From Deltaproteobacteria bacterium (GTDB lineage: Bacteria; UBA10199; SPLOWO2-01-44-7): a stretch of DNA of 64,000 nucleotides. Of the stretch, positions 10,464 to 46,345 are shown piece after piece. Numbering within the stretch: position 1 is the stretch's first letter; each line of letters opens with the position of its first letter. A program made the position numbers and the translations under genes. The stretch spans positions 21,105 to 85,104 of the forward strand of contig JAHFSU010000002.1 in assembly GCA_023265595.1 (NCBI GenBank). The letters run 5' to 3'. The notes beneath the pieces are model-generated. The model made no database searches. It was not told where the DNA came from and was given only the letters and a program-made list of their open reading frames with translations.

Positions 10464-10591
10464 TGAGTTAAAAACCATAAGTATTTCTAACATTTAATCC
10501 GCACCTTCGGTACGTCTCAAATGTTGAAATACTTTATCTGTCACCATTTTTTCTTGTATATATTATTCCACAATTGATTATAGGCGTCACC

Positions 10592-11344
10592 ATGAAAATC
10601 CTTCGTTGGTTTCCGGTCCTTATCCTGATTTTTTCTTCTTCTGCCTTTGCGCAACAACGCTATTTTTTTTCGGGAGATGGAAAAATCGTCTTTAAAAGGG
10701 GGAGCAAACCGCTCGATAATGTATCCCCTAGATTGATCGCCCTTCTCGGTTATCTGCAGGATGCCTTGGGAAAAGGAATGGCGAAGATTCAAATTCTTTC
10801 GGCCTATCGCAGTCCGGAATATAATGAGAAACTCCGACAAAAAGGAAAATTAGCCGCAAAAGCAAGTCTGCACCAAGAAGGGATGGCCGTCGACTTTACG
10901 ATGGAGGGTGTGCCGGCAGAAGAAATTTGGAAATTTGTCAAAAATTTGAATTGCTGCGGCGTCGGCTTTTATCACGGCAATGCGGTGCATATCGACACCG
11001 GCCCGCCCCGTTTTTGGGATGAAACCTCATCAAAAGTTTTTACCGATTTTTCTCTCCACAACAAACAGATTTATATCACAACTCAATACGATATTTATCA
11101 GCCGGGCGAAAAAATAAGTTTTGATATTGTGCGCATCACGGAATATCCTTTCGGTATTAAAATGGATAAAAAATGCCTTGTCATTGCGTCTAAAAAGGAG
11201 GCTCAGCATTTCATCTTCGACAAGAAATTTAAAAAGCGGGAAGGAAAACCGCAACAGCTGAAAATGAAGGTCTGTCAAAAACCCTCCCCCGAAATGCCGG
11301 ATGCCGTTATTTCGAACACCTTTATAATTGCCTCCCCCAAGTAG
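10592..11344 (+). CDS. Secreted DUF882 / peptidase M15A family protein (YcbK/MepK-like peptidoglycan LD-endopeptidase family)
   Basis: Signal peptide MKILRWFPVLILIFSSSAFA. Conserved block LSAYRSPEYNEKL…HQEGMAVDF…GVGFYHGNAVHIDTGPPRFW matches the YcbK-family zinc-binding motifs. Confidence 0.75.
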   Translation: MKILRWFPVLILIFSSSAFAQQRYFFSGDGKIVFKRGSKPLDNVSPRLIALLGYLQDALGKGMAKIQILSAYRSPEYNEKLRQKGKLAAKASLHQEGMAVDFTMEGVPAEEIWKFVKNLNCCGVGFYHGNAVHIDTGPPRFWDETSSKVFTDFSLHNKQIYITTQYDIYQPGEKISFDIVRITEYPFGIKMDKKCLVIASKKEAQHFIFDKKFKKREGKPQQLKMKVCQKPSPEMPDAVISNTFIIASPK

Positions 11345-11371: not shown

Positions 11372-11444
11372 GGGCCCTTAGCTCAGCGGTTAGAGCTGCC
11401 GGCTCATAACCGGTCGGTCCCAGGTTCGAATCCTGGAGGGCCCA
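11372..11444 (+). tRNA. tRNA-Met (anticodon CAT; elongator type or Ile-lysidine type, not initiator)
   Basis: Manual cloverleaf. Acceptor stem GGGCCCT/AGGGCCC with discriminator A. Anticodon loop CTCATAA. T-arm GGTTCGAATCC. The G1-C72 pair argues against an initiator. CCA is not encoded. Confidence 0.85.
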
Positions 11445-11446
11445 CA

Positions 11447-12400
11447 TTGAAAGTGCCACCTTCCAAAAGCATTACGCACAGAGCTCTTTTTTGCGCAGCG
11501 CTTGCCAAAGGAGAGAGTAGAATTATCGATCCGTCAAAATGCGACGACACACTGGCGAGTGTTCAGGTCCTTTCTCAACTCGGCATTTCCATTATCATGA
11601 AAGAAGAGGAATGGATCGTCCGCGGCGGCGCTTTCAAAAAACCGTCGATACCGCTTGATTGCAACGAATCGGGAACAACTTTTCGATTTGTGACAGCCCT
11701 TGCCGATGTTTTGAAAATTTCATGCGAAATAACCGGCAAACCTTTCTTGATGCAACGCCCGCAACGGCCGGATCCTAAAATCAGTTCGCAATATCTCTCC
11801 GGTCTGTTGTTGGTTGACCCATCCACTGCCATACCGAAGGAGGCCGTTTCCAAACCTTATATTTTTCTTACGATGGAGATGAAAAAAAAATTTGAGAAGG
11901 GCCCCACGGAAGTGACCATTGAAGGCTGTTGGTCTTCTGCCGCTTTTCTGATCGCCTTCGGCACATTGATCCAACCGATCCGATTGGAAGGTTTAAATCG
12001 GGAAAGTCTTCAGGGAGATAAAAAAATCGTGACGATCTTAAAAGAGATGGGGGCTGACATCGAATGGCAAAACAAGACACTTGTGGTAAAACCGTCGCCG
12101 CTCAAAGCGGTCTCATGGGATTTAACCGACACTCCCGATTTATACCCGATCCTTTCTGTTGTGGCCCGTTTTGCCAAAGGCCAATGTCATTTTAGAGGAA
12201 TCGAAAGATTGCGCTTTAAGGAATCAAACCGTTTTGAAGCAATGCAGGAAATCTCAAATGCGGTTGACTCAAAGGACCACCGGGTTATCATGGCGGCGGC
12301 TGTTTGGGGCAAAGCTACGGGGCAAAAGCTGAAGTTCAAATATCCCGAAGCGGTGGCCAAATCGTGGCCGAAGTTTTGGGATGTCCTTAAAAAGATATGA
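11447..12400 (+). CDS. aroA: Compact 3-phosphoshikimate 1-carboxyvinyltransferase (EPSP synthase) homologue, 317 aa, TTG start
   Basis: The KSITHRA motif (the AroA KS(I/V)SNRA Lys22 loop), SSQYLSGLLL, RFKESNRFEAM, DHRVIMAA and VAKSWP match AroA catalytic regions. It is ~110 aa shorter than typical AroA and begins 3 nt after the tRNA. Confidence 0.6.
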   Translation: MKVPPSKSITHRALFCAALAKGESRIIDPSKCDDTLASVQVLSQLGISIIMKEEEWIVRGGAFKKPSIPLDCNESGTTFRFVTALADVLKISCEITGKPFLMQRPQRPDPKISSQYLSGLLLVDPSTAIPKEAVSKPYIFLTMEMKKKFEKGPTEVTIEGCWSSAAFLIAFGTLIQPIRLEGLNRESLQGDKKIVTILKEMGADIEWQNKTLVVKPSPLKAVSWDLTDTPDLYPILSVVARFAKGQCHFRGIERLRFKESNRFEAMQEISNAVDSKDHRVIMAAAVWGKATGQKLKFKYPEAVAKSWPKFWDVLKKI

Positions 12401-13413
12401 GCAATGCCTTTGGCAAAATTTTTCAGGTAACGAGCTTTGGCGAAAGTCATGGGCCCTGTATCGGTGTCGTCGTCGACGGCTGTCCGGCCGGATTGAAAAT
12501 AGATCCCAAAAAAATTGCAGATGATTTGGCCAGAAGACGTCCGGGGCAAATACTAACCACCCCACGCAACGAAACGGATGATTTTAAAATTCTCTCCGGT
12601 CTTGTCGACGGACACACCACCGGAGCCCCGCTCTGTTTTATCATCCCCAATCACGATGTCGATTCCGCGCAATATGAAGAGCGCCGCTTTACCCCGCGGC
12701 CGGGACACGCTGACTACACGGCGTTTATCAAATATGCCGGTTTTGAGGATTATCGCGGCGGCGGCCGTTTTTCGGCCCGCGTGACAGCCGGTTTCGTCAT
12801 TGCGGGGAACATCGCCAAACAGCTTTTGGAAAAAATAGGTGTGACGATTTCTGCCAAAATTATTGAAATTGGGGGGAGGTCGGAAAAAATGATGGAGAGA
12901 ATTGCCGAAGCGGCCGAATCGGGCGAGAGTGTCGGGGGAATCATTGAGGGGGAGGCGTTGAACATTCCGGCCGGTTTGGGAGAACCGCTCTTCGACAAAC
13001 TCGACGCCGAATTGGCGAAGGCCCTCTTCTCTCTCCCCGCCGTCAAAGGCGTTGAATTTGGCAGCGGTTTTGCCGCCGCCAGAAAGCTGGGAAGTGAGAA
13101 CAATGATCCCTATGAAATACAAAACGGAAAAGTGGTGACGAAAACCAACAACGCCGGCGGTGTTTTAGGCGGCATTTCCAATGGCATGCCGATTGTTGCA
13201 TGCGTGGCCTTCAAACCGATCGCCTCGATTGCCAAACCGCAGGAGACCCTCGACCTCAGAACCAACCGACCGGTCCCATTAAAAATCGAAGGGCGTTTTG
13301 ACCCTTGTCCCATTCCACGCGCTGTCGTCATGGTAGAAGCGATGATGGCGATTGTCCTGACCGACTTTGCATTAATGGGGCAAGTGCTGCCAAAAGTTTT
13401 CAAACGCCAATGA
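12397..13413 (+). CDS. aroC: Chorismate synthase
   Basis: N-terminus MSNAFGKIFQVTSFGESHGPCIGVVVDGCPAGL is the canonical AroC start. 338 aa. Overlaps aroA by 4 nt. Confidence 0.9.
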   Translation: MSNAFGKIFQVTSFGESHGPCIGVVVDGCPAGLKIDPKKIADDLARRRPGQILTTPRNETDDFKILSGLVDGHTTGAPLCFIIPNHDVDSAQYEERRFTPRPGHADYTAFIKYAGFEDYRGGGRFSARVTAGFVIAGNIAKQLLEKIGVTISAKIIEIGGRSEKMMERIAEAAESGESVGGIIEGEALNIPAGLGEPLFDKLDAELAKALFSLPAVKGVEFGSGFAAARKLGSENNDPYEIQNGKVVTKTNNAGGVLGGISNGMPIVACVAFKPIASIAKPQETLDLRTNRPVPLKIEGRFDPCPIPRAVVMVEAMMAIVLTDFALMGQVLPKVFKRQ

Positions 13414-14855
13414 ATCTTTTTCGCCGAAAAACAATTGATGCCTGTCTTCAAGATATTGCCAATCCCGAAACATCATTAAAAAAAGCGCTGGGCCCTTGGC
13501 ACCTCATCGCTTTAGGGATCGGCGCTATCATCGGCGCCGGCATTTTTGCATCGATCGGCACCGCCGCCGCCGGAGATTTATTAAGACCGGGGGCCGGGCC
13601 GGCCATTATTCTCTCGTTTATTCTCACCGCCATCGCGTGCGGATTTGCCGCCCTCTGTTACGCCGAATTTGCGGCGATGGTCCCCATCTCCGGCTCGGCC
13701 TACACCTATTCCTACGCAACACTGGGGGAACTGATCGCATGGATTATCGGCTGGGATCTCATCATCGAATATGCAGTCGGCAATGTTGCCGTCGCCATTT
13801 CATGGTCGGGATATTTCACACAGCTTCTTTCCGGATTGGGAATACGCTTCCCCGTCTGGCTGGCCACCGATCTGCGCAGGGCATTAGCCAGCCCCGAAAT
13901 TCTGGCGGCCGCGCCCCACATCGGCAATGTCCCGATTGTCTGCAATCTTCCCGCGGCTTTGATCGTATTGGCGATCACATGGATTCTCGTGATCGGCATC
14001 AAAGAGAGCGCTCTTTTCAACAGCGTCATGGTGTTGATCAAACTGATAACGCTGGGCCTTTTTGTGGCGGTCGGATTTTTTTATGTAAAACCGGAAAATT
14101 GGCAACCTTTTATGCCAAACGGCTGGGCCGGCGTTCAGGCAGGGGCGGCCGTTGTTTTTTTCGCCTACATCGGCTTCGATGCGGTCTCCACCGTGGCTGA
14201 AGAATGCCGCAACCCCGCCAAAGATATGCCTCGCGGCATTATCGGTTCGCTCATCATTTCGACAATCATTTATATTATTGTTGCCGTTGTGTTGACCGGC
14301 ATTCTCCCTTTTTCCCAGCTGAATGTTTCCGAACCGCTCGCCTTGGCGTTGCAAAAAATAGGGGCGCATCAATCGGCCGGTTTTGTCTCCTTGGGCGCCA
14401 TTATTTCGATGACGGCTGTCTTGCTCGTTTTTCAACTGGGCCAGCCGCGCATTTTTTTCTCGATGGCCCGAGACGGCCTCTTGCCCCCATGGTGCGCCAA
14501 AGTGCATCCAAAATATCGAACACCCTATGTCACAACCCTCATTACCGGTTTTGTCGTCGCTTTTTTTTCGGCTTTCGCCAGCATCGATGAGATGGTCGAC
14601 CTCACGAACATCGGCACTCTTTTCGCTTTTGTTTTGGTCTGTGTCGGCATTTTGATTTTGCGTGTTCGGGAACCAAACCGGCTGCGTCCCTTCAAAGCCC
14701 CGCTTTTCCCATGGGTACCCATTTTGGGAATCCTCTCCTGTTTTTATCTGATGATGGGTCTGCCGCAGATCACATGGATCCGATTCGGCGTCTGGCTCGC
14801 GGTGGGGATGATTTTTTATTTTGCCTATGGAAGCCGCCACTCACGACTTGGGTAA
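13410..14855 (+). CDS. Amino-acid permease (APC superfamily)
   Basis: ATG at 13410 overlaps the aroC stop (ATGA). ~12 predicted TM helices. N-terminal consensus WHLIALGIGAIIGAGIF. Confidence 0.8.
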   Translation: MNLFRRKTIDACLQDIANPETSLKKALGPWHLIALGIGAIIGAGIFASIGTAAAGDLLRPGAGPAIILSFILTAIACGFAALCYAEFAAMVPISGSAYTYSYATLGELIAWIIGWDLIIEYAVGNVAVAISWSGYFTQLLSGLGIRFPVWLATDLRRALASPEILAAAPHIGNVPIVCNLPAALIVLAITWILVIGIKESALFNSVMVLIKLITLGLFVAVGFFYVKPENWQPFMPNGWAGVQAGAAVVFFAYIGFDAVSTVAEECRNPAKDMPRGIIGSLIISTIIYIIVAVVLTGILPFSQLNVSEPLALALQKIGAHQSAGFVSLGAIISMTAVLLVFQLGQPRIFFSMARDGLLPPWCAKVHPKYRTPYVTTLITGFVVAFFSAFASIDEMVDLTNIGTLFAFVLVCVGILILRVREPNRLRPFKAPLFPWVPILGILSCFYLMMGLPQITWIRFGVWLAVGMIFYFAYGSRHSRLG

Positions 14856-16418
14856 TGCCAAACGGTTTTTCCATTGTCTGATTTTTTTTCGGGCGGTGGG
14901 GGTCAAGACATCCCAGAAAAGTTCATCCAAAAAAGCAAAACGATTGGGGTGGCGCTCTCTCGAGTCGTCTGAAAAGCCGCCGTTTGTCGCAAAATAGAGG
15001 TGTGCGGTTTCCGCAAAATCTTCGGCGCGGTTTTTCTGCGCATATTCGCTGGGGCTGCTGGCGTCGCCCTGCATCGCTTTAAGCCACCCGCAATGATTTG
15101 CCAAATGGGAATCCCCAAACCGATACCACGCGATATGATGGCCCAATTCGTGATAGAAGGTGTCTCGTGTCAGGAGACCCATCTCAAAGCGACTCATAGC
15201 TTCTTCAGATCGTTTGAAAAAAGTGATTGTTCCATATCCCGCATTGGCTGCATAATGATTCGGGTCCGTTTTATCCAGAATGCGTATTCGTTTCAGTCCT
15301 GCCAGCAAATCATCCGGAACGGTCTTTAGAATATCGACAATCATTTGTGGCGTGGGTGTGGTGTAATGGAGGCCGTCATCGGGAATCAGTTGCGAGGCCG
15401 AGATTATAAATATCTTTTCACCTTTTGAAAAACATTGATTCATTTCATCCTCTCTTGCCTTTGCCGGTATTGATTCTGTCATAGGCTTTGCCTCAGAGCC
15501 TTTGATAAAAACAGATGAATGAGGCCGCCCCTGTTTCAGCAGTCTTTCCATCGTGCCCGTTTCTTGAGTTAGATATCTGGCGGGTCGTAGGGTTGAACGG
15601 GTTAACGAGGCAGGGACAAACGGGGCAAAATAATAGGGCTCCAGCAAATCGTCAGGGCCTATAATCCGATAATCTTCGGGAAAACCAGATTTTTCCGGTG
15701 CGTTGGCGTTGCAAAGTATCAAAGCGCCGGTCACGCAAAAATCGGCCACTCTCCATTGTTCCCCGCCGTAATACAAAACCAGATTATCATCATGATGGGC
15801 ATTCAAAAAATATCTTGCGTTATGGGCCAATCTTTTAAAATGGGGGTTGTCGCTAAAGTGATAGGGGGCATTGGCCACCGTAAAGACGCGGATTTTTGCG
15901 GGTAAAATATCCGGATCAATGATGCTCCCCAATCTTTTTCCGCGCAGTTTTAGGCCAAGGCCTTTTTCCTGTTTTGAAATTTCCATGATTTCGAGACTTT
16001 CCGGATTGAAAAGAATGTTGCGATCGTAGAAGACCCATCGCTCATCGTCTTTGCGTTTTCTTGTTTTACTTTTGTTCCCACTCTTGATGAGTATTTCCGC
16101 TATTCCCTCCACCGGCTGGAAAAGCTTGATCCGTTTAGCAATGGCCTGACGATCCGGTTTTAAAATCTCCTGCCACTTTTGGGGGTCGATCTTTTTGAAT
16201 GTATCAATAACGGCCGCTCGGTCGGATACCGTTTTTTCATCTGAAAAATCTGCCGGAACGGCCCCGCCTTCTCTCAAAAGAGGGACGGCCTCCAATAAAA
16301 TGGGGGCAATTTGACCATAAGGGGCTTGAGTCCCCTCCAAGGCCCCTGCCGCCTCTATGGGGGTCATAAAGGTCCTTAGGCCAAGCAAGAAAGATGAGTT
16401 GAGTATTTCGTTCATCAA
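14841..16418 (-). CDS. Hypothetical cytoplasmic protein with an HExxH zinc-metallopeptidase-like motif (HELGHHIAWY)
   Basis: 525 aa. No signal peptide. One HExxH with a downstream Glu. No family recognised by eye. Confidence 0.5.
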   Translation of the reverse strand: MMNEILNSSFLLGLRTFMTPIEAAGALEGTQAPYGQIAPILLEAVPLLREGGAVPADFSDEKTVSDRAAVIDTFKKIDPQKWQEILKPDRQAIAKRIKLFQPVEGIAEILIKSGNKSKTRKRKDDERWVFYDRNILFNPESLEIMEISKQEKGLGLKLRGKRLGSIIDPDILPAKIRVFTVANAPYHFSDNPHFKRLAHNARYFLNAHHDDNLVLYYGGEQWRVADFCVTGALILCNANAPEKSGFPEDYRIIGPDDLLEPYYFAPFVPASLTRSTLRPARYLTQETGTMERLLKQGRPHSSVFIKGSEAKPMTESIPAKAREDEMNQCFSKGEKIFIISASQLIPDDGLHYTTPTPQMIVDILKTVPDDLLAGLKRIRILDKTDPNHYAANAGYGTITFFKRSEEAMSRFEMGLLTRDTFYHELGHHIAWYRFGDSHLANHCGWLKAMQGDASSPSEYAQKNRAEDFAETAHLYFATNGGFSDDSRERHPNRFAFLDELFWDVLTPTARKKIRQWKNRLALPKS

Positions 16419-17842: not shown

Positions 17843-19543
17843 TTATTTGGTACGAATCAAAATCCCAAATCCATCGGTAGAACCACTGCTGCTGAAATCG
17901 AGTTTGCCGCTGACATTCGATACTTTATAAAATCTCGCGGCAGAAGAGGCGGTGGTGGAGCTTTGAGAACCGCTGAAACTCTTGACCGACACGCCGGAGA
18001 GTTTGGTTCCGCGATTATCTTGCGCACTGCAGCTCAAGCAGACACCGCTCAAATTGCCGGTCGCAGAATCGGCCACTCGGGGTTGATAGGTAAACCGACG
18101 ATCTTGGCTCACTCCTCTGTCGGTCATCGCCAGCGCGGCCGACCATCTCAGAAAAAATTCACCGAACTGGTCAAAATCACCGGCACGCCCGCCGAAGGCT
18201 GCTTCAATGCCTCGGACACCGGTGTTGCTGCTTTGCAACAATTTGGCCAAAAAGGCCTTCGGATTTTCCGCCTGTTCATAAAGATATCTGAGAAAAAGAT
18301 AAGCGCCGCCGCGGGTTGCTAAATTAGGTGATTTAGAGGTTGTCAAAGGATACGCTGACGGGTTCTGCAGATAGAGGGCATAGCGCGAGGGATTTTCCTG
18401 ATTTTGCCCCATCATATCTTCAGCCAAATGAGACAACCCCTCGTTGAGCCATGCCTCTTCGGAACTCCCTTTGTTGACGAAAACATGCTGATTGTAACTA
18501 ATCGCATGTTGCAACTCATGCGGCAAAACGGCGGGGATTAAATTCGACATCGCAAACGATTTAGAAACAGTCGCACCATATTCACCCTTCGGATCCGGAA
18601 CCATAATGTAGAGAATTTCCATATGATTGCTCGCCGCATTCGATGAAGAATTGGAATAGAGATCGGTTGCGTTAAAAAATCCGGTTACGATACCGCCGCC
18701 CAGCGCCCCTAATTTATTGACTTGGGGTGTGAACAACACAATCACCTTGCCGTCATTGTTGACATCGGAGAGAGAACCAAACAAGGCCTCTTCCTTTGAT
18801 ACGGTTTCATCGAACTGCCGGCAAAAGCCGTCCACTTCAGCAGAAGAAAGCATTTCAGTGGTGACCCGTTTGTCGACATAAAAAGCGACATTATTCCGAA
18901 CACATTCGGCCACCGCATCGACACTGACCGAACTGGAGGTGGAACTTAAACTGGCCAGCACTTTAAAGGATTGTTCACTCCCTTCGGAAATGCTGGGACT
19001 GACACCGGTAGAAATCGATTTGGCCATCGACAAGGACTCTGCTTCAGAAGAAATTTCCAATGTCTCCAATTCTTTTTCTTTCAAACGGAGCGATTCATGA
19101 AACTGTTCGGTAATATCGTTAACCTCTTCAGCATGGACAGCCAGAGATTTGGAAAGTGTCGGATCTTCTTCCAGATCAAACTCAGCCTCCGAAAGATCGC
19201 CGTTGATTTGAACGGAAAAATTGCTGCTGTTGGAGGAGGTATTCGCCACAACAAAAATAAATTCTGATTGACTCTCAACCCCTGCAAAATCGAGCGATTT
19301 GGAGCTATTTAAATCGACATATAAAAGATCACCGGTTCCTAATTGTTTCGGTTGGGAATAGATATTGGTAACGGTCACGCCACCGCTATTACCGGCTCCG
19401 GAATCGGAGCCTCCACCGGAGCCACCGAGTAACGATTTGGATTCGGAAACCCCGCCTGCTTGACTTCCACAACCTGTCTCTATCATCACCAAACCGATTC
19501 CGATCATTAAAATAATCTGTTTAATATATCGATTGGCAACCAT
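17843..19543 (-). CDS. Secreted lipoprotein with an HExxH motif (PHELQHAISYNQH); putative zinc metallopeptidase
   Basis: Lipobox …LVMIETGC at the chosen start (Met 10 of the track ORF, preceded by a GAGGA SD). Driven by a σ54 promoter. Confidence 0.5.
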   Translation of the reverse strand: MVANRYIKQIILMIGIGLVMIETGCGSQAGGVSESKSLLGGSGGGSDSGAGNSGGVTVTNIYSQPKQLGTGDLLYVDLNSSKSLDFAGVESQSEFIFVVANTSSNSSNFSVQINGDLSEAEFDLEEDPTLSKSLAVHAEEVNDITEQFHESLRLKEKELETLEISSEAESLSMAKSISTGVSPSISEGSEQSFKVLASLSSTSSSVSVDAVAECVRNNVAFYVDKRVTTEMLSSAEVDGFCRQFDETVSKEEALFGSLSDVNNDGKVIVLFTPQVNKLGALGGGIVTGFFNATDLYSNSSSNAASNHMEILYIMVPDPKGEYGATVSKSFAMSNLIPAVLPHELQHAISYNQHVFVNKGSSEEAWLNEGLSHLAEDMMGQNQENPSRYALYLQNPSAYPLTTSKSPNLATRGGAYLFLRYLYEQAENPKAFLAKLLQSSNTGVRGIEAAFGGRAGDFDQFGEFFLRWSAALAMTDRGVSQDRRFTYQPRVADSATGNLSGVCLSCSAQDNRGTKLSGVSVKSFSGSQSSTTASSAARFYKVSNVSGKLDFSSSGSTDGFGILIRTK

Positions 19544-19577
19544 TTGATTATCCTCGCTTTCTTGCTTCAAGCCTTAG

Positions 19578-35817: not shown

Positions 35818-38052
35818 TTAATGATCATAATTAATTATCGGGTTCAAGGGGAATTTTTCCTCTGCCAGCTCTGCTTCTATTTCCTCGGCAATACGTTGCT
35901 TTTCCAATGCAAGGAAGAAATCATCTGCACGGTGAACTTTTTGACTTTGCCTCGTTACGAAGGACCTAAGTTCATCAACGATAATCTTTAAGTATATTTC
36001 TATTTCTTTTCTTTTATCCTTTATCCCCATCCAACTCACAATAAACTTTAATTGATGTATTCTCTCCCCCGGGTGAATATTCACAATATGTGGAAACTGG
36101 CGGGCGGCAGTCGCCGCCTTCATCTGAATATCCAATGGGAGTTCAATACGCCGATCTTCCGAATCAAATCCGGGAAGGAGTTCCGAAATATGAAAATTGG
36201 CTGTCTTTGCCGCAAGGTGATCATCAGCCATGGCCTTTAAAATAGCCTCTTTTTCTTCTTCTAAAAAAGGGCTCTCAGTATGCGACAATCGCATCTTGAA
36301 ATATTCCTTCAAAATATAAGCGCTAAAGAGATAAGCACCCCGCTCCGCAAGAATAGACGAGCGATTCCCGGCTGGAAAAAACCCGCTCAAATTTTTGTAT
36401 CCATCCATGTTGTGAAAGATCTCATGAGCCAAAATCTGCAATCTTTCGTAAAAAGGTTTCAAAAAACCATTTTGAGGATTGGCGTACTCGACTTCTATAT
36501 TTTTAAAAAGCGCTCTCGCAAAGCCGGCCGCACCTTCTATTTTCAGCGTCGAATCCAGCGCCACCGTATCCACCGATTGAACCGCCAAATCATAAACAGG
36601 AACACCTCGGTAAGCAATTTCTTTTAAAACATCCAATTCACTTTCCAAAGGATTGTCGGAGCGGGGGTAGGCTTCGAACGGCACAACCAGACGTCCCTTT
36701 TTGAAGACATCGGCCCAATGAGCCGGCTCCGGCTTGGTCCAGAGAATATCATCGGGCAAAACTTTTTCGTGATAAAGATTTGCTGATTGGGCCAATAGAT
36801 CAGAGACGCCAAAAGGAATTTTGGCAGATTTAGCATCAAAAATATAATGGCCCATAAACATATTAAAGAAAAAATCATTCTGACATTGGTTCAGGGCGGA
36901 GCCGCCGCGTTCCAACTCCAACCGGATCGATTCAGAAATAGCGCTCAAAAAATCATTGCGGACTTTGTAGTTGTCGAGACGGCTCTCGGTTTCAAAGGCT
37001 CGTCGCGCAGCAACAAAAGGCTTTTTAATCTTATCCAACAGATCGGGGGTCCATTTATCTTTGTAGGCTTGTTGGAACATCGAAATAAGGGAATCGATCA
37101 TTGCAATTTCACCTTGAGTTTGTGTGAATCCCCTCACCCCCAACTCCACAAAAAAAGCGTACGATTTCAAAAAGTGCTGAACCCTCTCTTCAGAATTTTG
37201 CGCATTCCTCCCTTCTAAAAAAAGATTTTTGGAAAATTCGATAAGTTCTGGATCGTTCAATTTGGGCAAAACCTCCAAATATTCCGGAGAAAGGCCGCGC
37301 GCCATCAGGGCCGTTTTGTATTCTTCCCGATATTTTTGATGATATTCCCTTGCAACCTTTACGATCTCTTCTTCAGAAAATCGCGACCGGAAATATTGGT
37401 TCACTACGAGACCGTTTTTCCAATCTCCATCGTCAAAAAGCAAAACTTCTCCATCAAAACTTTTCAAAAACTGCAGGGTATTAGAATGACCCATTTCAAA
37501 CATTTCTTGCAGAGAAGGATTCTCTTTTTCTATGCGGTAGATCAAACCACGGGATTGGGAATTGAGATCGGGGGCCGCCAAAATAGAGAGCCGCCTGATT
37601 TCGGGCCGATCGGCTTGGGCCAGATATTCGGGATTTTCAAATGCGATTCGCTCAATAGCTTTGAGCCAATTTTTGAGAGATAAAAAGGCCGTCAAATCAG
37701 CGACAGGGGCCTCGTGCGATTTTTCATCATAACGAAAGACCCTTGCCTCCAGCTCTTTCAGATGGATCAACAATTCCGGAATACTTAAATTGCGGACTTG
37801 CGCCTCAAAGGCCTCGGCAGTGGCATAAAGCTGCGGGTATTTTACGGCAGGAGAATCCGGATGGATGAGATCGACAACGGAGCGGAAGGTATCGATATCT
37901 TTTTTGGCGTCATTGACTTTAGGTTGATGGGCAGTCGGATCCGGATCGGTCTTTTCTAAGGCTAAAGCGATTTGTTTTTCACAAAACGCTCTCGCTTTTT
38001 TACCGGATATTTCAAAAGGCATAAACAATGGCCCCCAAATAGTTATCGGCAC
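35818..38052 (-). CDS. Large hypothetical protein with a single HExxH motif (ILAHEIFHNMDGY…AERGAY); putative gluzincin-type metallopeptidase
   Basis: 744 aa with a GTG start. No signal peptide. An HExxH with a Glu ~20 aa downstream is the only recognisable feature. Confidence 0.5.
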   Translation of the reverse strand: MPITIWGPLFMPFEISGKKARAFCEKQIALALEKTDPDPTAHQPKVNDAKKDIDTFRSVVDLIHPDSPAVKYPQLYATAEAFEAQVRNLSIPELLIHLKELEARVFRYDEKSHEAPVADLTAFLSLKNWLKAIERIAFENPEYLAQADRPEIRRLSILAAPDLNSQSRGLIYRIEKENPSLQEMFEMGHSNTLQFLKSFDGEVLLFDDGDWKNGLVVNQYFRSRFSEEEIVKVAREYHQKYREEYKTALMARGLSPEYLEVLPKLNDPELIEFSKNLFLEGRNAQNSEERVQHFLKSYAFFVELGVRGFTQTQGEIAMIDSLISMFQQAYKDKWTPDLLDKIKKPFVAARRAFETESRLDNYKVRNDFLSAISESIRLELERGGSALNQCQNDFFFNMFMGHYIFDAKSAKIPFGVSDLLAQSANLYHEKVLPDDILWTKPEPAHWADVFKKGRLVVPFEAYPRSDNPLESELDVLKEIAYRGVPVYDLAVQSVDTVALDSTLKIEGAAGFARALFKNIEVEYANPQNGFLKPFYERLQILAHEIFHNMDGYKNLSGFFPAGNRSSILAERGAYLFSAYILKEYFKMRLSHTESPFLEEEKEAILKAMADDHLAAKTANFHISELLPGFDSEDRRIELPLDIQMKAATAARQFPHIVNIHPGERIHQLKFIVSWMGIKDKRKEIEIYLKIIVDELRSFVTRQSQKVHRADDFFLALEKQRIAEEIEAELAEEKFPLNPIINYDH

Positions 38053-38782: not shown

Positions 38783-38843
38783 AAAACCTCCTCATCGTTA
38801 AAGCATCATAACGTTATGACGTTAAAATGTCAAACGTGAAATG

Positions 38844-38925
38844 TGCTCCCGGCAGGATTTGAACCTGCAACCCTTTCGGGACGGCGTTCTAAGCGCCGCG
38901 CGTATGCCAATTCCGCCACAGGAGC
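38844..38925 (-). tRNA. tRNA-Leu (anticodon TAG), type II with a long variable arm
   Basis: Manual fold of the reverse complement. Acceptor GCTCCTG/CGGGAGC + A. Anticodon stem CGGCG/CGCCG with loop CTTAGAA. Variable arm CCCGAAAGGG. T-arm GCAGG-TTCAAAT-CCTGC. 82 nt. Confidence 0.85.
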
Positions 38926-41358: not shown

Positions 41359-41489
41359 ATTATTTTGCAATCTTATAATTACCCCCTCCTCACTTTAATT
41401 TTTGAGCAAGCAACTTTGGGGGGCCCTTCCGCCGATAACTTTATTGGATAGGGGTGGTGTACTATACGGGGAGAGAAGGGATAAAAATT

Positions 41490-44400
41490 ATGGGTGATGC
41501 AAAAATAAAAAACGATTCCCTTTTTAATGAGGGAATTCTTCCTCCTTCTAAAGACGTAGACCGCACCTGTATCGATTACGAAACCATCGAAGAGGTACCG
41601 GTGATTGAAGTAGAAGGTGGCCTTGAAATAGATAAAGATAATTTTGAAGATGTTCGTCGTGTCTGGCTGGGTTATGAAGATGGGAAACCTTCCGTAAAAT
41701 ATTATGAGCCGGGTGAAGGGGAGAGGGCAATACAAGAATCGTTGGACAAACTAAAGCAAGAGGGGAAAGATCCGGAAAATTCTCCCGGCCCCCACCATAT
41801 GTCCGGTTTTCCGGCAGATCAAAAGGGGAACCTTCTTATCCAAATGCTCCAACAAAAAACGTGTCGATATACGGCAAGAGAAAAGGATGAGGAGGCTTCT
41901 TTATATAGGGAGAAAGATGTTCGTAAAAAGCAACACCATAAACTGGGCCGTGCGGAAAAGCCTGATAAAAACGGAAAATTTAAAATCTATTTCTATAAAG
42001 AGAGCCCCAAGCTGGATGTCCCTTGCCAAACCATGGGATTCGTCCCCTTAACGGAAGTTAGAGGGCGGGCCGATATCATTCGCCTCATTAAAGCCGGTGA
42101 GTTGGTACCGGGTACCGATTACTGTATCGGCGGAATCGAAAAAAATCCGAGACTCCTGTTTAATCCAACTCGTGTAGAAGGCTATGTCGATCCTATCGTT
42201 ATCCCTAATATTCTTAAATCGGGTCTCTTTTCAAACGAGATGGAAAAAAGGGTCAAAGCCGACATTGAACGAGCAACAAATACAGAGAGAGAATCTATTT
42301 TGCGGCAGAAAGAATCAGCCGATTTACAAAAACATCAGGTTGAATCACAGCCGTGGTTAATGAGTATTAACACATTCGTAGCCTCTCTGATTGGTGTTGG
42401 CCCCATGTTATGGATCTCCAGAAGACAGATGCAAATGATGAGGGAACAGTTGGGACTTCAAAAAGAACAGATGGGAATTATCCGGGAACAGATGGAAGGG
42501 GGAAAGAAGGAGCCTATTCTCCCTAAACTCAGAGATATAACGCAAGAAGCAAGAGAAGGAAAAATCAAACCGGTCTCGCCAAGACTGTGGCCTGCCATCA
42601 AACAACTTGCCATTAATTTGAGCAAAGGAAAATTGGCAAACCCGACCTTGCTCGCGGAAAATGGAGTTGGCAAATCGGCCGCTGTTGAAGGTTTAGCCTT
42701 GGCTATTGTCAACGGCATTCTTCCTGATGGAACACCCTTACCGGATCATTTGAAAGGAAAAAGAATTTTAGAGGTAAGCGCCGGAGAACAGTTTTCAGCC
42801 ACCAAGGGAGGAGAATATCGCGGAGTCATGGAGGCCAAATTCAGGCAGTTCTTGGAAGAGGTCAAAGCCGCCAAAGATGTCATCCCCTTTATTGATGAAG
42901 TTCATGAATTGGCCAAAGCGGGACAAACAGAGGGTTCAGCAGGTATTGCACAGATGTTCAAAGCAGGGACAGCCCGAACCAATGAGTTTCAATTTATCGG
43001 AGCAACAACCAACGAAGAATTTGCTAGACATTTTGCGGGGGACAAGGCGCTTCAAAGCCGTATGCCACCCGTTGAGGTAGCAACTCCGGATGCCAAAGGG
43101 GCCATAGCTGATCTACGGTTCACGCGCGAGGCCAATGAAGCCCACTACGGAAGAAAAATTCCGGACGCAACAATTGATGAAATAGTGAGACTTTCAGAAC
43201 CGGCCACTTATACCAACTTTCCTAGAAAGGCATTTGATCTGCTGGAAACCGTTGCCAAGCAGATGGATATTGAAGGAGACACAAGTGGCACCATTATACC
43301 GGAAAGAGTTCGGGCTTATGTTGAATGGAAAAGTCTGGATGCCGTAGCCAATGCCACTTCCGAAGCATGGCGTGAGGCGAATCGTCCCAAACTGTCTCTA
43401 CAAGAGATTCGTGTGATACAGGAAAGAAGTATCGGAGAGACTTTGCAAGTATTGGTTCGGGATGCAGAAAAATTGTCCGACCTTGTATTAGAAAAAATTG
43501 TTACTACCCTCACGAATTCATGGGAGGCTCTCAAACCCGAGGCAAGAGCCGGGCTCACTCCCCCCGGAACAGCCGATTTTGCCATTCCACAACGTTTTGT
43601 CGAAGTTTCGTTAAGCGGCATCAAAGATCATTTAGGCATCCAATTAATTCCTCAACCTGTCGTTCCAGCTCCGCCAATTATTTCAGGTGGTGGAGGGACG
43701 GGAGGCCCTGCCCCAACAGGAGGAACATCCGGCACCGGCGGCACACCGCCAACCGGAGGTGGAGCACCTACCGGAACCCCTTCGCCGGCAAACCCAACAT
43801 CTTCTCCGGCACCGGCTTCCGGAGCAACCGCTTCGGCAACGGCTAGAGTGATGGAGACAACAACGACCTCCCCTGAAGCTCAAGCTCTGAGAGCATTAGA
43901 AAAAAGTACCACCGCATTAGAGGTGATATTGGGTTCAAAAGTAATGCCCCATATTGATGTCCGCGTTCCGGTCGGATTGGCAGCAACGACAGGAACAGCT
44001 GCGGCCTTTCATATTGCAGATTATTTTGGTGTTCCTTCCTATCTGACAGGCAGTGCCGCCTTGGGAGCGCTTGCGTGGACTGTTCGCAGTAATCCGGTGG
44101 CAGGCGTTTGCACTGCCGTAGTTCATGCCGGATATTTTATGGCCGGTGCCTATCCTGCCACAGCGGGACTTGCCGACTTGCGAGGCGAGGAGAAACCGTC
44201 TCTCACAACACATCTGGTTGGTGATTTAGCAGGGGGTGTCTCGTGGACTATTATTAATAAAGCCAATGGTGGCGGCGGTCCCGAAAAAATGCTTATTGCC
44301 CAAGCTGAACAGGCCGTCATCGGTTTAAGAATGTATGGTAAAGAAATTGCGGCCGGAGCTTCTGCAACCGCCACAACAATGGCGGCCTATGCCAGAAATG

Positions 44401-44831
44401 CAGGGTCTGTGATGGCGGCAGGGGCACGTGCTTTGGCCAGTGAAGCTGTGGCAACCGAAGGGCTGATGACTGCCGGAGCCACGGTCGGAGGGATCATCGC
44501 TTTTGCGCCGTTTCTTATGGGAATGGCCGGAGAGGAAGATGTGGCTTTGATGCTTGCCGGTGATATCAAACATCGCGACTCCGAACTGAAAAAATTAATC
44601 CGTTGGGCTCTGAACAGCGATCAATTGGATATCGATTGGTATGGAGCCGAATTAGATCGCAATGGATTAAAGGGAACGAAGCACGACGACAGCCAAATCA
44701 TGAAAAACAATCGTCTGTTCATGAAGCACTTCACCGCGCTGGCGAGAGCAAAGGAAAATGGTGATGAAGAGGCCACCAACAAGGCCCGCGAAAATTTCGT
44801 AAAAACTTTTCCGGAATTGGCCAGAAAGTAG
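41490..44831 (+). CDS. Large (1113 aa) multidomain protein: unknown N-terminal domain (~290 aa) with a hydrophobic segment, coiled coil, a single ClpA/ClpB-D1-type AAA+ module, a Gly/Pro/Thr-rich disordered linker and a Gly/Ala-rich hydrophobic C-terminal domain (~330 aa)
   Basis: Start at the ATG 9 nt after GAGAAGGG. The AAA+ core aligns with ClpB D1: Walker A NGVGKSAAVEGLALAIVNG, Walker B VIPFIDEVHEL, sensor-1 FIGATT, Arg finger ALQSRM. The pre-AAA helix (LRDITQEAREGKIKPVSPR) also matches. There is no D2 or ClpB middle domain. The C-terminus (…GASATATTMAAYARNAGSVMAAGARALASEAVATEGLMTAGATVGGIIAFAPFLMGMAG…) looks like glycine-zipper membrane helices. Confidence 0.8.
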   Translation: MGDAKIKNDSLFNEGILPPSKDVDRTCIDYETIEEVPVIEVEGGLEIDKDNFEDVRRVWLGYEDGKPSVKYYEPGEGERAIQESLDKLKQEGKDPENSPGPHHMSGFPADQKGNLLIQMLQQKTCRYTAREKDEEASLYREKDVRKKQHHKLGRAEKPDKNGKFKIYFYKESPKLDVPCQTMGFVPLTEVRGRADIIRLIKAGELVPGTDYCIGGIEKNPRLLFNPTRVEGYVDPIVIPNILKSGLFSNEMEKRVKADIERATNTERESILRQKESADLQKHQVESQPWLMSINTFVASLIGVGPMLWISRRQMQMMREQLGLQKEQMGIIREQMEGGKKEPILPKLRDITQEAREGKIKPVSPRLWPAIKQLAINLSKGKLANPTLLAENGVGKSAAVEGLALAIVNGILPDGTPLPDHLKGKRILEVSAGEQFSATKGGEYRGVMEAKFRQFLEEVKAAKDVIPFIDEVHELAKAGQTEGSAGIAQMFKAGTARTNEFQFIGATTNEEFARHFAGDKALQSRMPPVEVATPDAKGAIADLRFTREANEAHYGRKIPDATIDEIVRLSEPATYTNFPRKAFDLLETVAKQMDIEGDTSGTIIPERVRAYVEWKSLDAVANATSEAWREANRPKLSLQEIRVIQERSIGETLQVLVRDAEKLSDLVLEKIVTTLTNSWEALKPEARAGLTPPGTADFAIPQRFVEVSLSGIKDHLGIQLIPQPVVPAPPIISGGGGTGGPAPTGGTSGTGGTPPTGGGAPTGTPSPANPTSSPAPASGATASATARVMETTTTSPEAQALRALEKSTTALEVILGSKVMPHIDVRVPVGLAATTGTAAAFHIADYFGVPSYLTGSAALGALAWTVRSNPVAGVCTAVVHAGYFMAGAYPATAGLADLRGEEKPSLTTHLVGDLAGGVSWTIINKANGGGGPEKMLIAQAEQAVIGLRMYGKEIAAGASATATTMAAYARNAGSVMAAGARALASEAVATEGLMTAGATVGGIIAFAPFLMGMAGEEDVALMLAGDIKHRDSELKKLIRWALNSDQLDIDWYGAELDRNGLKGTKHDDSQIMKNNRLFMKHFTALARAKENGDEEATNKARENFVKTFPELARK

Positions 44832-45184: not shown

Positions 45185-46345
45185 TTACAACACTTCAACC
45201 GATTTTTTACAGGCCTCCAGATTTTTATGGGCTGTCTGCCAAGCAGCGACCTCCGGAAAAACGGAAACATTTTTGACATTTGCAAAGAGTTCCACAGCGG
45301 CTTGGCAGCCTTCCAATTGTAAAACTGTATCGGCTTGCATCAAAAGAGGGCGCGCTTTTTCGTCGAGACGGGTATAAACTTTTTGTAAAAGGTCATTCGC
45401 TTTTGGATTGGGAGAATAGTCGCGGAGAATATTTCGCAAATCATGGCCGATCGCAATGAGATCGGGATTCTTTTTATTTGACCCTTCGACAGGCTCAGGG
45501 TGAGCGGAACTCGGGGTCAAAATGACATCATATTGAGCCAGCTTCGGCTCCAGTTCTTTGTTTAATTTGGCCTCGGCCGCCTGCAAGGCATCCTCAATTT
45601 GTTTATAAAAGGGAGGCTTTAGTTCTTCCGAATTAAAAAGGGCTATGGCTTGTTTCAATTGTTGATAATTGTTGGTTTCTAAAAGTTTTTTGGCTTTGAC
45701 AAATTTTTCTTCAAGCTCCTTTGATGGCCCGTAGTTTTCCTCTTTTTTAAGGGCCTCTTGCAGTGTTGCGGTCATCTTGCCGGCCCGTTCATTGTCAGGC
45801 GATTTTCGTAAAATTGTTTTCAAGGCCAGCAGGGCTTGGGGTGCATCATCTGCTTCCAGAAAAGAGCGGATTTCATCTCCCCCGCTCTCTCCTTTTTTCC
45901 CATCCCCTTTTCCCTCTTCCACAAGGTGAGAGTGAGGCTCCGTAATATACATGAGAGATCGTTCTATTTTCTGCTGCAAAGGGTCCTGACGATTCAGAAT
46001 ATGATTTTGGGCGAGGTCCCAATATTGTTTTGCCTCTGCAAGACGATGCCATTGATAATAGCGAAGCCCATCGCGATAATATCGCGCCGCACGATGCCGC
46101 AATTCTTCCACCAATTCTTTTTTTTCCGCTTCTACCTCGGCAAACAAGGGATCAAAAAAATGGGAGAGGGAATAACTGTAAACGGCGCACCGCCATTCCA
46201 GCCTTTCCTTGTGTTTTCCGGCCAGAGAATAAAATTCGAGCCCCAAAGTTTTGGAGGCAGAGAGGCCCTCTCCCGCGACGAAACGTGGGCTCACAATAAC
46301 GAATAGGAGACTAAGACAAAGTGACCAGAAAACGTTTTTCGCCAT
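45185..46345 (-). CDS. Hypothetical secreted protein at the distal end of the Tad locus; contains an in-ORF copy of the GC-rich hairpin repeat (encoding LVEEGKGDGKK)
   Basis: Start chosen at MAKNVFWSLCLSLLFVIVSPRFVAGEG (signal peptide); the track ORF runs to 46504. Confidence 0.45.
   Translation of the reverse strand: MAKNVFWSLCLSLLFVIVSPRFVAGEGLSASKTLGLEFYSLAGKHKERLEWRCAVYSYSLSHFFDPLFAEVEAEKKELVEELRHRAARYYRDGLRYYQWHRLAEAKQYWDLAQNHILNRQDPLQQKIERSLMYITEPHSHLVEEGKGDGKKGESGGDEIRSFLEADDAPQALLALKTILRKSPDNERAGKMTATLQEALKKEENYGPSKELEEKFVKAKKLLETNNYQQLKQAIALFNSEELKPPFYKQIEDALQAAEAKLNKELEPKLAQYDVILTPSSAHPEPVEGSNKKNPDLIAIGHDLRNILRDYSPNPKANDLLQKVYTRLDEKARPLLMQADTVLQLEGCQAAVELFANVKNVSVFPEVAAWQTAHKNLEACKKSVEVL

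What the first reader, a model, noticed from the sequence alone, without database searches (positions are those of the whole stretch)
11372..12400. Compact 317-aa EPSP synthase starting with TTG three bases after tRNA-Met
The AroA homologue retains the catalytic Lys loop (KSITHRA), the S-S-Q shikimate-phosphate site, and the R-x-K-E-x-x-R, D-H-R and A-K blocks. It is ~110 residues shorter than class I/II enzymes. It has no residues upstream of the first β-strand, because the tRNA occupies that DNA. It is translationally coupled to aroC (4-nt overlap), which argues that it is functional. It could be either a naturally minimised EPSP synthase or a gene truncated when the tRNA region was rearranged. 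If functional, it would also be of interest with respect to glyphosate sensitivity.
Basis: partly seen in the sequence, partly recalled or inferred. Interest (0 to 1): 0.5.

Follow-up and report, generated by a model that had tools for sequence, protein, structure and literature searches.

The report
Naturally minimised EPSP synthase beside tRNA
This 317-residue gene is an intact member of a small, undescribed group of naturally shrunken EPSP synthases (the glyphosate-target enzyme) that kept every catalytic residue and lost about a quarter of the fold; the tRNA next to it did not cut it short.

Summary
A 317-aa TTG-start ORF (11447-12400) follows a tRNA(CAT) (11372-11444/5) by 2 nt and overlaps aroC by 4 nt. 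No canonical upstream start exists.

It was not truncated by the tRNA. It belongs to a rare clade of short AroA homologues (314-397 aa) from uncultured 'Deltaproteobacteria' MAGs. Relatives with a protein gene upstream have the same short N-terminus. All S3P/PEP-binding and catalytic residues are invariant. aroC follows in every context where the downstream gene could be identified.

AlphaFold gives pLDDT 95, and the model fits closed E. coli EPSPS (TM 0.90). Against a 421-aa sister model it lacks 12 β-strands and one helix, namely the outer β-hairpins of four of the six βαβαββ units. A tree suggests stepwise loss, with different hairpins lost in different branches.

The tRNA adjacency is secondary. 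In most relatives a DPP III-like gene precedes aroA, and that gene is absent from this window.

Caveats:
- A near-universal Asp is replaced by Cys (D161C).
- The TIGR01356 score is below its cutoff.
- Translation at the tRNA junction is unexplained, because the only SD-like motif lies inside the tRNA.
- Activity is untested, and a second aroA elsewhere in the genome could not be excluded.

The parts
11372..11445 (+). tRNA with anticodon CAT, probably tRNA-Ile2 (lysidine type) rather than tRNA-Met. No encoded CCA (3' end ...GGGCCC-A-CA).
   Evidence: ARAGORN; Rfam RF00005 at 70.3 bits. It is 96% identical to the tRNA that follows the M15 peptidase gene in L001. Best E. coli matches are annotated tRNA-Ile with a CAT anticodon.
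11435..11439 (+). GGAGG, the only Shine-Dalgarno-like motif before aroA, 7 nt upstream of TTG. It lies inside the tRNA T-stem/acceptor stem.
   Evidence: Read from the sequence. It is base-paired in the predicted fold. The same bases occur in the L001 and L089 tRNAs, which are not adjacent to aroA, so the motif belongs to the tRNA.
11447..12400 (+). Short aroA, a 317-aa minimised EPSP synthase homologue with a TTG start. Catalytic Lys7 is at 11465-67. The unique D161C codon TGT is at 11927-29.
12397..13413 (+). aroC (chorismate synthase, 338 aa). Its start overlaps the aroA stop (ATGA).
   Evidence: Pfam PF01264 at 1e-124, covering 1-327 of 327; NCBIfam TIGR00033 at 387.8 bits against a cutoff of 212.
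13410..14855 (+). Amino-acid permease (481 aa from ATG 13410). Its start overlaps the aroC stop (ATGA). Third gene of the apparent tRNA-aroA-aroC-permease transcription unit.
   Evidence: Pfam AA_permease_2 at 3.5e-62. The same 481-aa gene follows aroC in L004, and a 488-aa one lies nearby in L089.
10574..11344 (+). Peptidase M15-family gene upstream of the tRNA (context). The M15-then-tRNA(CAT) linkage is conserved in L001 and L089. A perfect TATAAT at 11323-28 lies in its 3' end, about 44 nt before the tRNA; this is a weak promoter lead only.
   Evidence: Pfam; contexts. The TATAAT is read and was not reported by the promoter scan because the -35 is poor.

Best explanation
Proposal: ORF 11447-12400 encodes a functional, naturally minimised EPSP synthase (3-phosphoshikimate 1-carboxyvinyltransferase).

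SHOWN
- It belongs to a small clade of short AroA homologues (314-397 aa) in uncultured bacteria labelled 'Deltaproteobacteria bacterium'.
- The clade keeps every residue that in E. coli EPSPS binds shikimate-3-phosphate and PEP or acts in catalysis. In E. coli numbering (window residue in brackets): K22 (K7), S23, R27, R100, R124, S169/S170/Q171, S197, Y200, D313 (D231), K340, E341 (E259), R344, H385, R386, K411 (K305).
- It keeps both domains, all but one of the core helices, and the parallel strands.
- It lacks the N-terminal β-hairpin, the C-terminal strand, and the outer β-hairpins of three further βαβαββ units. One helix is also lost.
- On an NJ tree the loss looks stepwise. A 397-aa form sits at the base and a 378-aa form is the next to branch. 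Branches then lose different hairpins.
- The short N-terminus predates the tRNA juxtaposition.

INFERRED
- The enzyme catalyses the normal reaction: enolpyruvyl transfer from PEP to the 5-OH of S3P after domain closure. It then feeds chorismate synthase, whose gene is translationally coupled to it.
- The tRNA(CAT) came to lie 2 nt from the start codon because this lineage lost the DPP III-like gene, and the cold-shock gene, that separate them in relatives.
- aroA-aroC-permease must be transcribed together with the tRNA, because there is no room for a promoter or terminator between them.

NOT RESOLVED
- How the TTG is used for initiation, given that the only SD-like motif lies inside the tRNA.
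For: - Clade: 18 homologues of 314-397 aa at 40-62% identity and 97-100% query coverage. In the 19-sequence alignment 60 columns are invariant, including all ligand and catalytic positions.
- Rarity: only about 5 clusters at 50% identity among 13,454 EPSPS-family hits in 1.84 billion representatives.
- Same N-terminus (M-[RK]-[VI]-P-[PS]-S-K-S) in loci without an adjacent tRNA, with in-frame stops just upstream.
- Structure: AF2 pLDDT 95.0, pTM 0.93. Foldseek gives query-normalised TM 0.89-0.90 to closed, S3P-liganded E. coli EPSPS. Element-by-element mapping onto an AF2 model of the 421-aa sister P0019 (pLDDT 96.7) shows 12 strands and 1 helix missing and everything else superposable in sequence register.
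- Stepwise, branch-specific loss.
- Selection: pN (0.25-0.37) is far below pS (0.68-0.78) for every pair that includes the window. The only unsaturated pair gives dN/dS 0.26. The window copy deviates at 9 of 105 highly conserved columns, within the range of 1-12 seen in its relatives.
- Operon: aroC follows aroA in all nine contexts where the downstream gene could be identified. There is a 4-nt overlap in the window, L001, L087-L090 and L092.
- Not an assembly artefact: the same gene order is on an independent 56.6-kb ENA contig.
Against: - No activity data exist.
- The NCBIfam aroA equivalog TIGR01356 scores 257.9 bits, below its 287.25 cutoff.
- The window copy alone has Cys at an Asp (the E. 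coli D242 equivalent) that is D in 119 of 120 homologues. It also has the deepest deletion in unit 3, shared only with P0003.
- The translation context is poor: a TTG start, and an SD-like motif buried in tRNA helices.
- I could not search whole genomes of the clade for a second, full-length aroA. The one GTDB scan returned only distant full-length AroAs from other phyla.
- AF2 confidence partly reflects the deep alignment of full-length homologues.
Confidence: 0.7

Rival explanations
1. The gene is a 5'-truncated remnant or pseudogene, created when the tRNA region was rearranged.
For: The tRNA abuts the start codon. About 2.6 kb present between the tRNA and aroA in L001 is missing here. The start is TTG. 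An ENA gene caller chose a later ATG, giving a 267-aa product (P0001).
Against: Relatives with a protein gene upstream have the same N-terminus within 0-4 residues, bounded by in-frame stops. The ORF has no frameshift or stop. The residues before Met51, including the catalytic Lys loop, are conserved. pN is far below pS. The AF2 model is compact.
Confidence: 0.03
2. The short clade is under selection but is no longer an EPSP synthase. It might act on another acceptor or serve as a binding or regulatory protein, while the real EPSPS (a canonical aroA, or MurA moonlighting) is encoded elsewhere.
For: A quarter of the fold is gone. TIGR01356 is below cutoff. Whole genomes could not be checked. 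MurA-catalysed EPSP synthesis has been reported in bryophytes (PMC11588093; abstract only, seen).
Against: Every S3P- and PEP-contacting residue is invariant across the clade. The gene is always directly upstream of aroC and usually overlaps it. All 50 best structural matches listed are EPSPS chains or EPSPS-derived proteins, and no MurA appears among them.
Confidence: 0.15
3. The clade is functional, but this particular copy is impaired or decaying because of D161C, an extra deletion in unit 3, and loss of its own 5' UTR.
For: D161C is unique among 120 homologues. The copy has 4 private changes at otherwise invariant columns, against 0-3 in relatives. It has a longer NJ branch than its closest relatives in that tree. 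The SD-like motif is sequestered in the tRNA.
Against: The reading frame is intact and coupled to an intact aroC and permease. The number of deviations at conserved columns is within the clade's range. pLDDT is 97-98 around residues 141-170. P0003 has a similarly short unit 3.
Confidence: 0.1

Closest known systems
E. coli AroA / class I EPSP synthase (427 aa; PDB 1G6S, 3FJX)
   Same: Same two-domain fold in the closed form (query-normalised TM 0.89-0.90). Identical catalytic and ligand-binding residues. The G96-equivalent is Gly and the T97-equivalent is Thr.
   Different: 110 residues shorter. It lacks E. coli 1-15, 129-164, 184-189, 212-229 and 352-376. N94 is Glu, P101 is Phe, N336 is Arg and D242 is Cys. 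Identity is only about 23-30%.
The ~420-aa AroA subfamily of Dehalococcoidia/Chloroflexota and other uncultured lineages (P0019-P0120; motif C-x-ES-[AG]-x-T-x-RF)
   Same: Nearest full-length relatives by sequence (32-36% BLASTP identity, 43-45% over aligned columns). They share the ES-[AG]-TT-RF and R-x-R-x-KES-[DN]-R motif variants. In the NJ tree they form the sister group.
   Different: They have all six complete βαβαββ units (AF2 model of P0019). The window protein lacks 12 strands and 1 helix of that architecture.
Unstudied database entries of the same short clade (for example P0013, 'hypothetical protein A3F82_10110', 318 aa; P0004 and P0005, named 3-phosphoshikimate 1-carboxyvinyltransferase)
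   Same: Same reductions, the same aroC coupling and the same invariant residues.
   Different: Most are preceded by a DPP III-like gene rather than a tRNA. They keep Asp at the D161 position. P0009 and P0013 have instead lost 15 residues of unit 4.
tRNA-mRNA co-transcription units (E. coli thrU-tyrU-glyT-thrT-tufB operon) and mitochondrial 'tRNA punctuation'. Both are cited from my own knowledge and were not tested here.
   Same: A tRNA and a downstream ORF with no intervening promoter or terminator, so tRNA 3' processing must define the mRNA 5' end.
   Different: Here the spacer is 2 nt, the start is UUG, and the SD-like motif is part of the tRNA. Nothing is known about processing in this organism.

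Membership tests
EPSP synthase (AroA, EC 2.5.1.19) | Significant match to Pfam PF00275 above the gathering score | tested here: met
   186.8 bits against a cutoff of 22.8, E=7e-55. The match is split into 3 stretches because of the deletions.
EPSP synthase (AroA, EC 2.5.1.19) | Score above the trusted cutoff of the NCBIfam equivalog model TIGR01356 | tested here: not met
   257.9 bits against a cutoff of 287.25. This may be why one clade member is named 'hypothetical protein'.
EPSP synthase (AroA, EC 2.5.1.19) | Catalytic and S3P/PEP-binding residues: K22, S23, R27, R100, R124, S169-Q171, S197, Y200, D313, K340, E341, R344, H385, R386, K411 (E. coli numbering; residue roles are from established structural work and my own knowledge) | tested here: met
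   All are present in the window protein. All but S169 are invariant in the 19-sequence short-clade alignment; the S169-equivalent is Thr or Asn in several members.
EPSP synthase (AroA, EC 2.5.1.19) | Two-domain inside-out α/β-barrel fold | tested here: met
   AF2 pLDDT 95, pTM 0.93. TMq is 0.89-0.90 and TMt 0.67 to liganded E. coli EPSPS. All 50 listed PDB matches are EPSPS chains or EPSPS-derived proteins.
EPSP synthase (AroA, EC 2.5.1.19) | Complete architecture of six βαβαββ units (about 410-450 aa) | tested here: not met
   Only units 1 and 4 keep their β-hairpins. 12 strands and 1 helix are absent relative to the 421-aa sister model.
EPSP synthase (AroA, EC 2.5.1.19) | Genomic association with the shikimate pathway | tested here: met
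   aroC lies immediately downstream in all nine contexts where the downstream gene could be identified, mostly with a 4-nt overlap. No other aro genes lie in the 64-kb window.
EPSP synthase (AroA, EC 2.5.1.19) | Enzymatic activity or aroA complementation | not testable with these tools
   Needs an experiment.
Glyphosate-sensitivity classes I-IV (Leino et al., bioRxiv 10.1101/2020.05.27.118265) | Full set of class marker residues or motifs relative to the reference enzymes | not tested
   The marker tables were not retrieved. Only single positions were checked: G96-equivalent Gly, T97 Thr, P101-equivalent Phe. That study excluded sequences shorter than 350 aa as 'severely truncated' when building its phylogenetic tree.
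MurA (UDP-GlcNAc enolpyruvyl transferase) | Closer sequence or structure match to MurA than to AroA | tested here: not met
   No MurA appears among the 41 PDB sequence hits or the 50 best structural matches listed.
tRNA-Ile2 (CAU anticodon, lysidine-modified) versus tRNA-Met | CAU anticodon, plus greater similarity to annotated tRNA-Ile(CAU) than to tRNA-Met or tRNA-fMet. C4-G69 and C5-G68 acceptor pairs (TilS determinants, from my own knowledge). | tested here: inconclusive
   The best E. coli-collection hits, at 81-85% identity, are annotated tRNA-Ile and carry CAT. The acceptor stem GGGCCCU/AGGGCCC has C4-G69 and C5-G68. No isotype-specific model was available.

The most novel reading that the evidence does not exclude
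The short clade would be the smallest active enolpyruvyl transferases known. It would show that four of the six surface β-hairpins, one helix and one of the two inter-domain crossover strands of the EPSPS fold are dispensable, which defines a minimal catalytic core of about 315 residues. In this organism the enzyme would in addition be expressed from a tRNA-mRNA precursor in which the tRNA's own 3' helices carry the ribosome-binding site. tRNA maturation and aroA translation would then compete for the same transcript.
Probability: 0.3. Interest if true: 0.65.

Novelty: new variant of a known kind. Interest (0 to 1): 0.5.

Why it matters
EPSP synthase is the glyphosate target and a classic antimicrobial target. 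All characterised enzymes have about 410-450 residues and a strictly six-fold βαβαββ architecture.

A conserved lineage appears to have pared this down in steps to about 315 residues without touching the active site. If it is active, several things follow:
- It gives a natural experiment on which parts of the fold are needed for catalysis and domain closure.
- It gives a compact scaffold for engineering.
- It warns about surveys and annotation rules. Length filters below 350 aa and the TIGR01356 cutoff discard such genes as fragments.
- Pathway-completeness calls for these uncultured bacteria could be affected.

The tRNA-aroA junction is a small, separate puzzle about how an ORF is translated when its only SD-like motif lies inside a tRNA.

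Tried and rejected
- GTDB genome scan with the short-clade alignment. Only distant full-length AroAs at 34% identity or less came back, so neither the clade's taxonomy nor a second aroA per genome could be assessed.
- Foldseek against afdb50 was unavailable.
- JGI metagenome pattern scan for a tRNA 3' end within 30 nt of the PPSKS codons: 0 hits.
- Literature searches for short or minimal EPSPS, for Asp242/D242, and for the lineage found nothing relevant. The NCBI taxonomy lookup of the MAG name failed.
- An upstream extension through the tRNA was rejected. The frame has no ATG, GTG or TTG. The only CTG (11396) would add tRNA-encoded residues with no similarity to AroA N-termini (read).
- The GTG at codon 3 was rejected as the start. 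Relatives conserve M-[KR]-[VI]-P in register with TTG.
- A promoter inside the tRNA gene was not found.
- The idea that the 642-689-aa upstream protein is a partner supplying the missing parts was rejected. It is a distant DPP III / M49 peptidase homologue. It is absent from the window and missing from its usual place upstream of aroA in L089 and L090.
- The idea that the deletion destroyed an encoded CCA was dropped. The window's tRNA-Leu also lacks an encoded CCA.
- dN/dS on the window's own branch could not be estimated, because all pairs that include the window are saturated at synonymous sites.

Full report
WHAT IS THERE

The window carries a tRNA with anticodon CAT at 11372-11444/5 (ARAGORN; Rfam 70.3 bits). 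A 317-codon ORF follows from TTG 11447 to TGA 12400.

The reading frame is open upstream to TAG 11342-44 but contains no ATG, GTG or TTG (sequence). The ORF therefore cannot be extended over the tRNA with a canonical start.

The next gene is a full-length chorismate synthase (12397-13413; Pfam 1e-124, TIGR00033 387.8 bits). It overlaps the ORF by ATGA. A 481-aa amino-acid permease (ATG 13410) overlaps aroC in the same way.

The ORF is an EPSP synthase homologue. Pfam PF00275 gives 7e-55 and PDB AroA chains reach 1e-28.

NOT A TRUNCATION BY THE tRNA

A search of 5.8 billion proteins found 18 homologues that are also short (314-397 aa). They are 40-62% identical and cover 97-100% of the query. 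The next-best hits are ordinary AroAs, mostly 390-450 aa, at about 35% identity.

Several short homologues begin M-[RK]-[VI]-P-[PS]-S-K-S exactly like the window protein.

I could examine ten other genomic contexts. In eight of them a 642-689-aa gene lies immediately upstream of the short aroA. In L092 that gene overlaps aroA by 4 nt. No tRNA lies next to aroA in any of the eight.

In L004 and L085 an in-frame stop lies 5 codons and 1 codon before the ATG. Those proteins cannot have the canonical N-terminal hairpin either. The short N-terminus is therefore a property of the clade.

In L001 the gene order is M15 peptidase, tRNA(CAT), a small ORF, a cold-shock gene, a 689-aa gene, aroA, aroC. 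The L001 tRNA is 96% identical to the window's.

The window has M15 peptidase, tRNA, aroA, aroC. It lacks the 650-aa gene anywhere in its 64 kb.

The juxtaposition is therefore a lineage-specific loss of about 2.6 kb. A second sub-branch (L089) has lost the same genes independently but keeps about 150 nt between the tRNA and aroA.

An independent 56.6-kb ENA contig has the same gene order as the window. An assembly artefact is therefore unlikely.

WHAT IS MISSING FROM THE FOLD

Relative to E. coli AroA, the window protein lacks residues 1-15, 129-164, 184-189, 212-229 and 352-376, plus a few single residues.

AlphaFold2 with a 120-sequence alignment gives pLDDT 95.0 and pTM 0.93, with no segment below 70. 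Foldseek places the model on closed, S3P-liganded E. coli EPSPS with a query-normalised TM-score of 0.89-0.90 and a target-normalised score of 0.67.

I also modelled the 421-aa sister P0019 (pLDDT 96.7) and mapped its secondary-structure elements through the alignment. In P0019 numbering the window protein lacks:
- the N-terminal hairpin (β2-6, most of β10-15) and the C-terminal strand β415-419;
- helix 120-128 with strands 132-136, 139-146 and 152-156;
- strand 179-183;
- the hairpin 208-218;
- the hairpin 348-359.

All other helices are retained, as are the hairpins of units 1 and 4.

In terms of the classical description of the fold (six βαβαββ units, helices inside, sheets outside; my own knowledge), four of the six outer hairpins and one helix are gone. 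The helix bundle whose N-termini line the active-site cleft is kept.

Because the N-terminal hairpin belongs to the C-terminal domain, only a 5-residue stub of the first inter-domain crossover remains. This last point is an inference.

EVIDENCE THAT THE CLADE IS UNDER SELECTION AS AN EPSPS

In the 19-sequence short-clade alignment 60 columns are invariant. They include the equivalents of K22, S23, R27, R100, R124, S170, Q171, S197, Y200, D313, K340, E341, R344, H385, R386 and K411.

An NJ tree with a table of region lengths suggests stepwise reduction:
- P0016 (397 aa, N-terminal hairpin still present) is basal.
- P0014 (378 aa) is the next to branch.
- One branch then loses the unit-1 hairpin.
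- Another branch loses unit 2's distal half and unit 5's hairpin.
- The window and P0003 shorten unit 3 further.
- P0009 and P0013 lose part of unit 4.

Repeated, different deletions with an untouched active site are not what decaying pseudogenes look like.

Non-synonymous differences are far rarer than synonymous ones in every pair (pN 0.25-0.37 against pS 0.68-0.78 for the window). The only pair that is not saturated gives dN/dS 0.26.

aroC follows in every context where the downstream gene could be identified, usually with a 4-nt overlap.

The clade is rare. About five clusters at 50% identity appear among 13,454 EPSPS-family hits in 1.84 billion representatives.

CAVEATS

- Activity is untested.
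- The NCBIfam equivalog model for aroA scores 257.9 bits, below its 287.25 cutoff.
- The window copy has four private substitutions at otherwise invariant clade positions (L30S, A123V, D161C, L239V). D161 corresponds to E. coli D242, in the E-G-D-x-S-S motif just after the crossover. It is Asp in 119 of 120 homologues and Cys only here. I found no accessible literature on this residue.
- I could not check whole genomes for a second aroA. Within the 64-kb window there is no other PF00275 gene and no other shikimate gene.

EXPRESSION AT THE JUNCTION

There are 2 nt between the tRNA's discriminator base and TTG. Transcripts of the tRNA must therefore run into aroA, and aroA has no promoter of its own unless one lies inside the tRNA. 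The scan found none.

The only SD-like motif is GGAGG at 11435-39, with a 7-nt spacer. It is part of the tRNA's T-stem and acceptor stem. It is also present in the L001 and L089 tRNAs, which are not adjacent to aroA. It is base-paired in the predicted fold.

Neither tRNA in the window encodes CCA. 3' maturation therefore presumably involves an endonucleolytic cut after the discriminator (inference). That cut would leave a UUG-start mRNA with a 2-nt leader.

Leaderless initiation at UUG is rare. UUG accounts for 3% of leaderless starts in P. acnes, and E. coli depends on a 5'-terminal AUG (PMC3848588, read).

SD-like motifs precede only about 8 of 46 mechanically defined starts in this window. 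This organism may therefore depend little on SD pairing.

Which route is used is unresolved.

COMPARISON WITH WHAT IS KNOWN

The protein works like an EPSP synthase and is most simply filed as one: fold, residues and operon all fit. It fails two formal criteria, the complete six-unit architecture and the TIGR01356 cutoff.

I found no description of such short enzymes. The large EPSPS classification study removed sequences below 350 aa as 'severely truncated' when building its phylogenetic tree (bioRxiv 10.1101/2020.05.27.118265).

Members of the clade sit in databases as '3-phosphoshikimate 1-carboxyvinyltransferase' or 'hypothetical protein'. One gene caller started the window's orthologue at Met51, which drops the catalytic Lys (P0001).

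On glyphosate: the G96-equivalent is Gly (G76). This position is Gly in 50 and Ala in 70 of 120 homologues. P101 is Phe and N94 is Glu. Sensitivity cannot be predicted from this.

VERDICT

This is a real, intact gene. It is a new, strongly reduced variant of a well-known enzyme family. It was not produced by the tRNA, and it is probably (about 0.7) an active EPSP synthase. Interest is moderate.

Noticed in passing
window 11372-11445: The tRNA that ARAGORN calls tRNA-Met (CAT) looks like tRNA-Ile2, the lysidine type. Its best matches in E. coli records (81-85% identity, CAT anticodon) are annotated tRNA-Ile. Its acceptor stem has C4-G69 and C5-G68. It resembles ileX more than metT or metV as I recalled those sequences.
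   Followed up: partly
window 11440-11449 and 38838-38846 (- strand): Neither tRNA in the window encodes CCA. Both 3' ends read discriminator-A then CATT. The tRNA-like 3' end before aroA in L089 also reads CCCACATT. The TT of the aroA TTG start may therefore derive from the tRNA trailer, making the start codon a fusion product of the deletion. This is speculation.
   Followed up: no
L089 7680-8000: Complex spacer between the M15 peptidase gene and aroA. The acceptor stem of the tRNA(CAT) is prolonged by a perfect 21-nt inverted repeat. The unit is flanked by a 51-nt direct repeat (94% identical) that contains a 12-bp hairpin. There is also a 24-nt partial tRNA copy. The two halves of a second tRNA-like gene appear split around the unit. 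It looks like an insertion or att-type duplication. ARAGORN and Rfam do not detect the second tRNA.
   Followed up: partly
L001 3919-5988; L004 4039-5985; L085 400-2328; L087 62-2077; L088 371-2329; L092 278-2230: A 642-689-aa protein with an HExxH motif and almost no Pfam signal lies directly upstream of the short aroA in 8 of 11 contexts, with a 4-nt overlap in L092. It is a distant dipeptidyl-peptidase III (M49) homologue (PDB 5zum, 1e-25). It is absent from the window.
   Followed up: partly
window 11597-12400 (P0001): A public gene call for the identical protein starts at Met51 (267 aa) and so omits the catalytic Lys loop. Another clade member is named 'hypothetical protein'. Short AroAs appear to be mis-annotated repeatedly.
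   Followed up: yes
window 17843-19570 (-) and 14841-16418 (-): Two large proteins with no or marginal family matches. One is 574 aa with a weak MXAN_6640 HExxH metalloprotease hit, and it is conserved next to a MnmL/YtqA-type radical SAM gene in L001, L004 and L090. The other is 524 aa with no hit.
   Followed up: no
window 35818-38052 (-), 45185-46504 (-), 41454-44831 (+): Further large ORFs without a Pfam assignment (743 aa, 438 aa) or with only an AAA domain (1125 aa). They lie between housekeeping clusters: tig-clpP-clpX-lon at 29.5-35.3 kb, a Tad/Flp pilus cluster at 46-53 kb, and the dcw cluster murG-murC-murB-ddl-ftsQ-ftsA-ftsZ at 56.5-64 kb.
   Followed up: no
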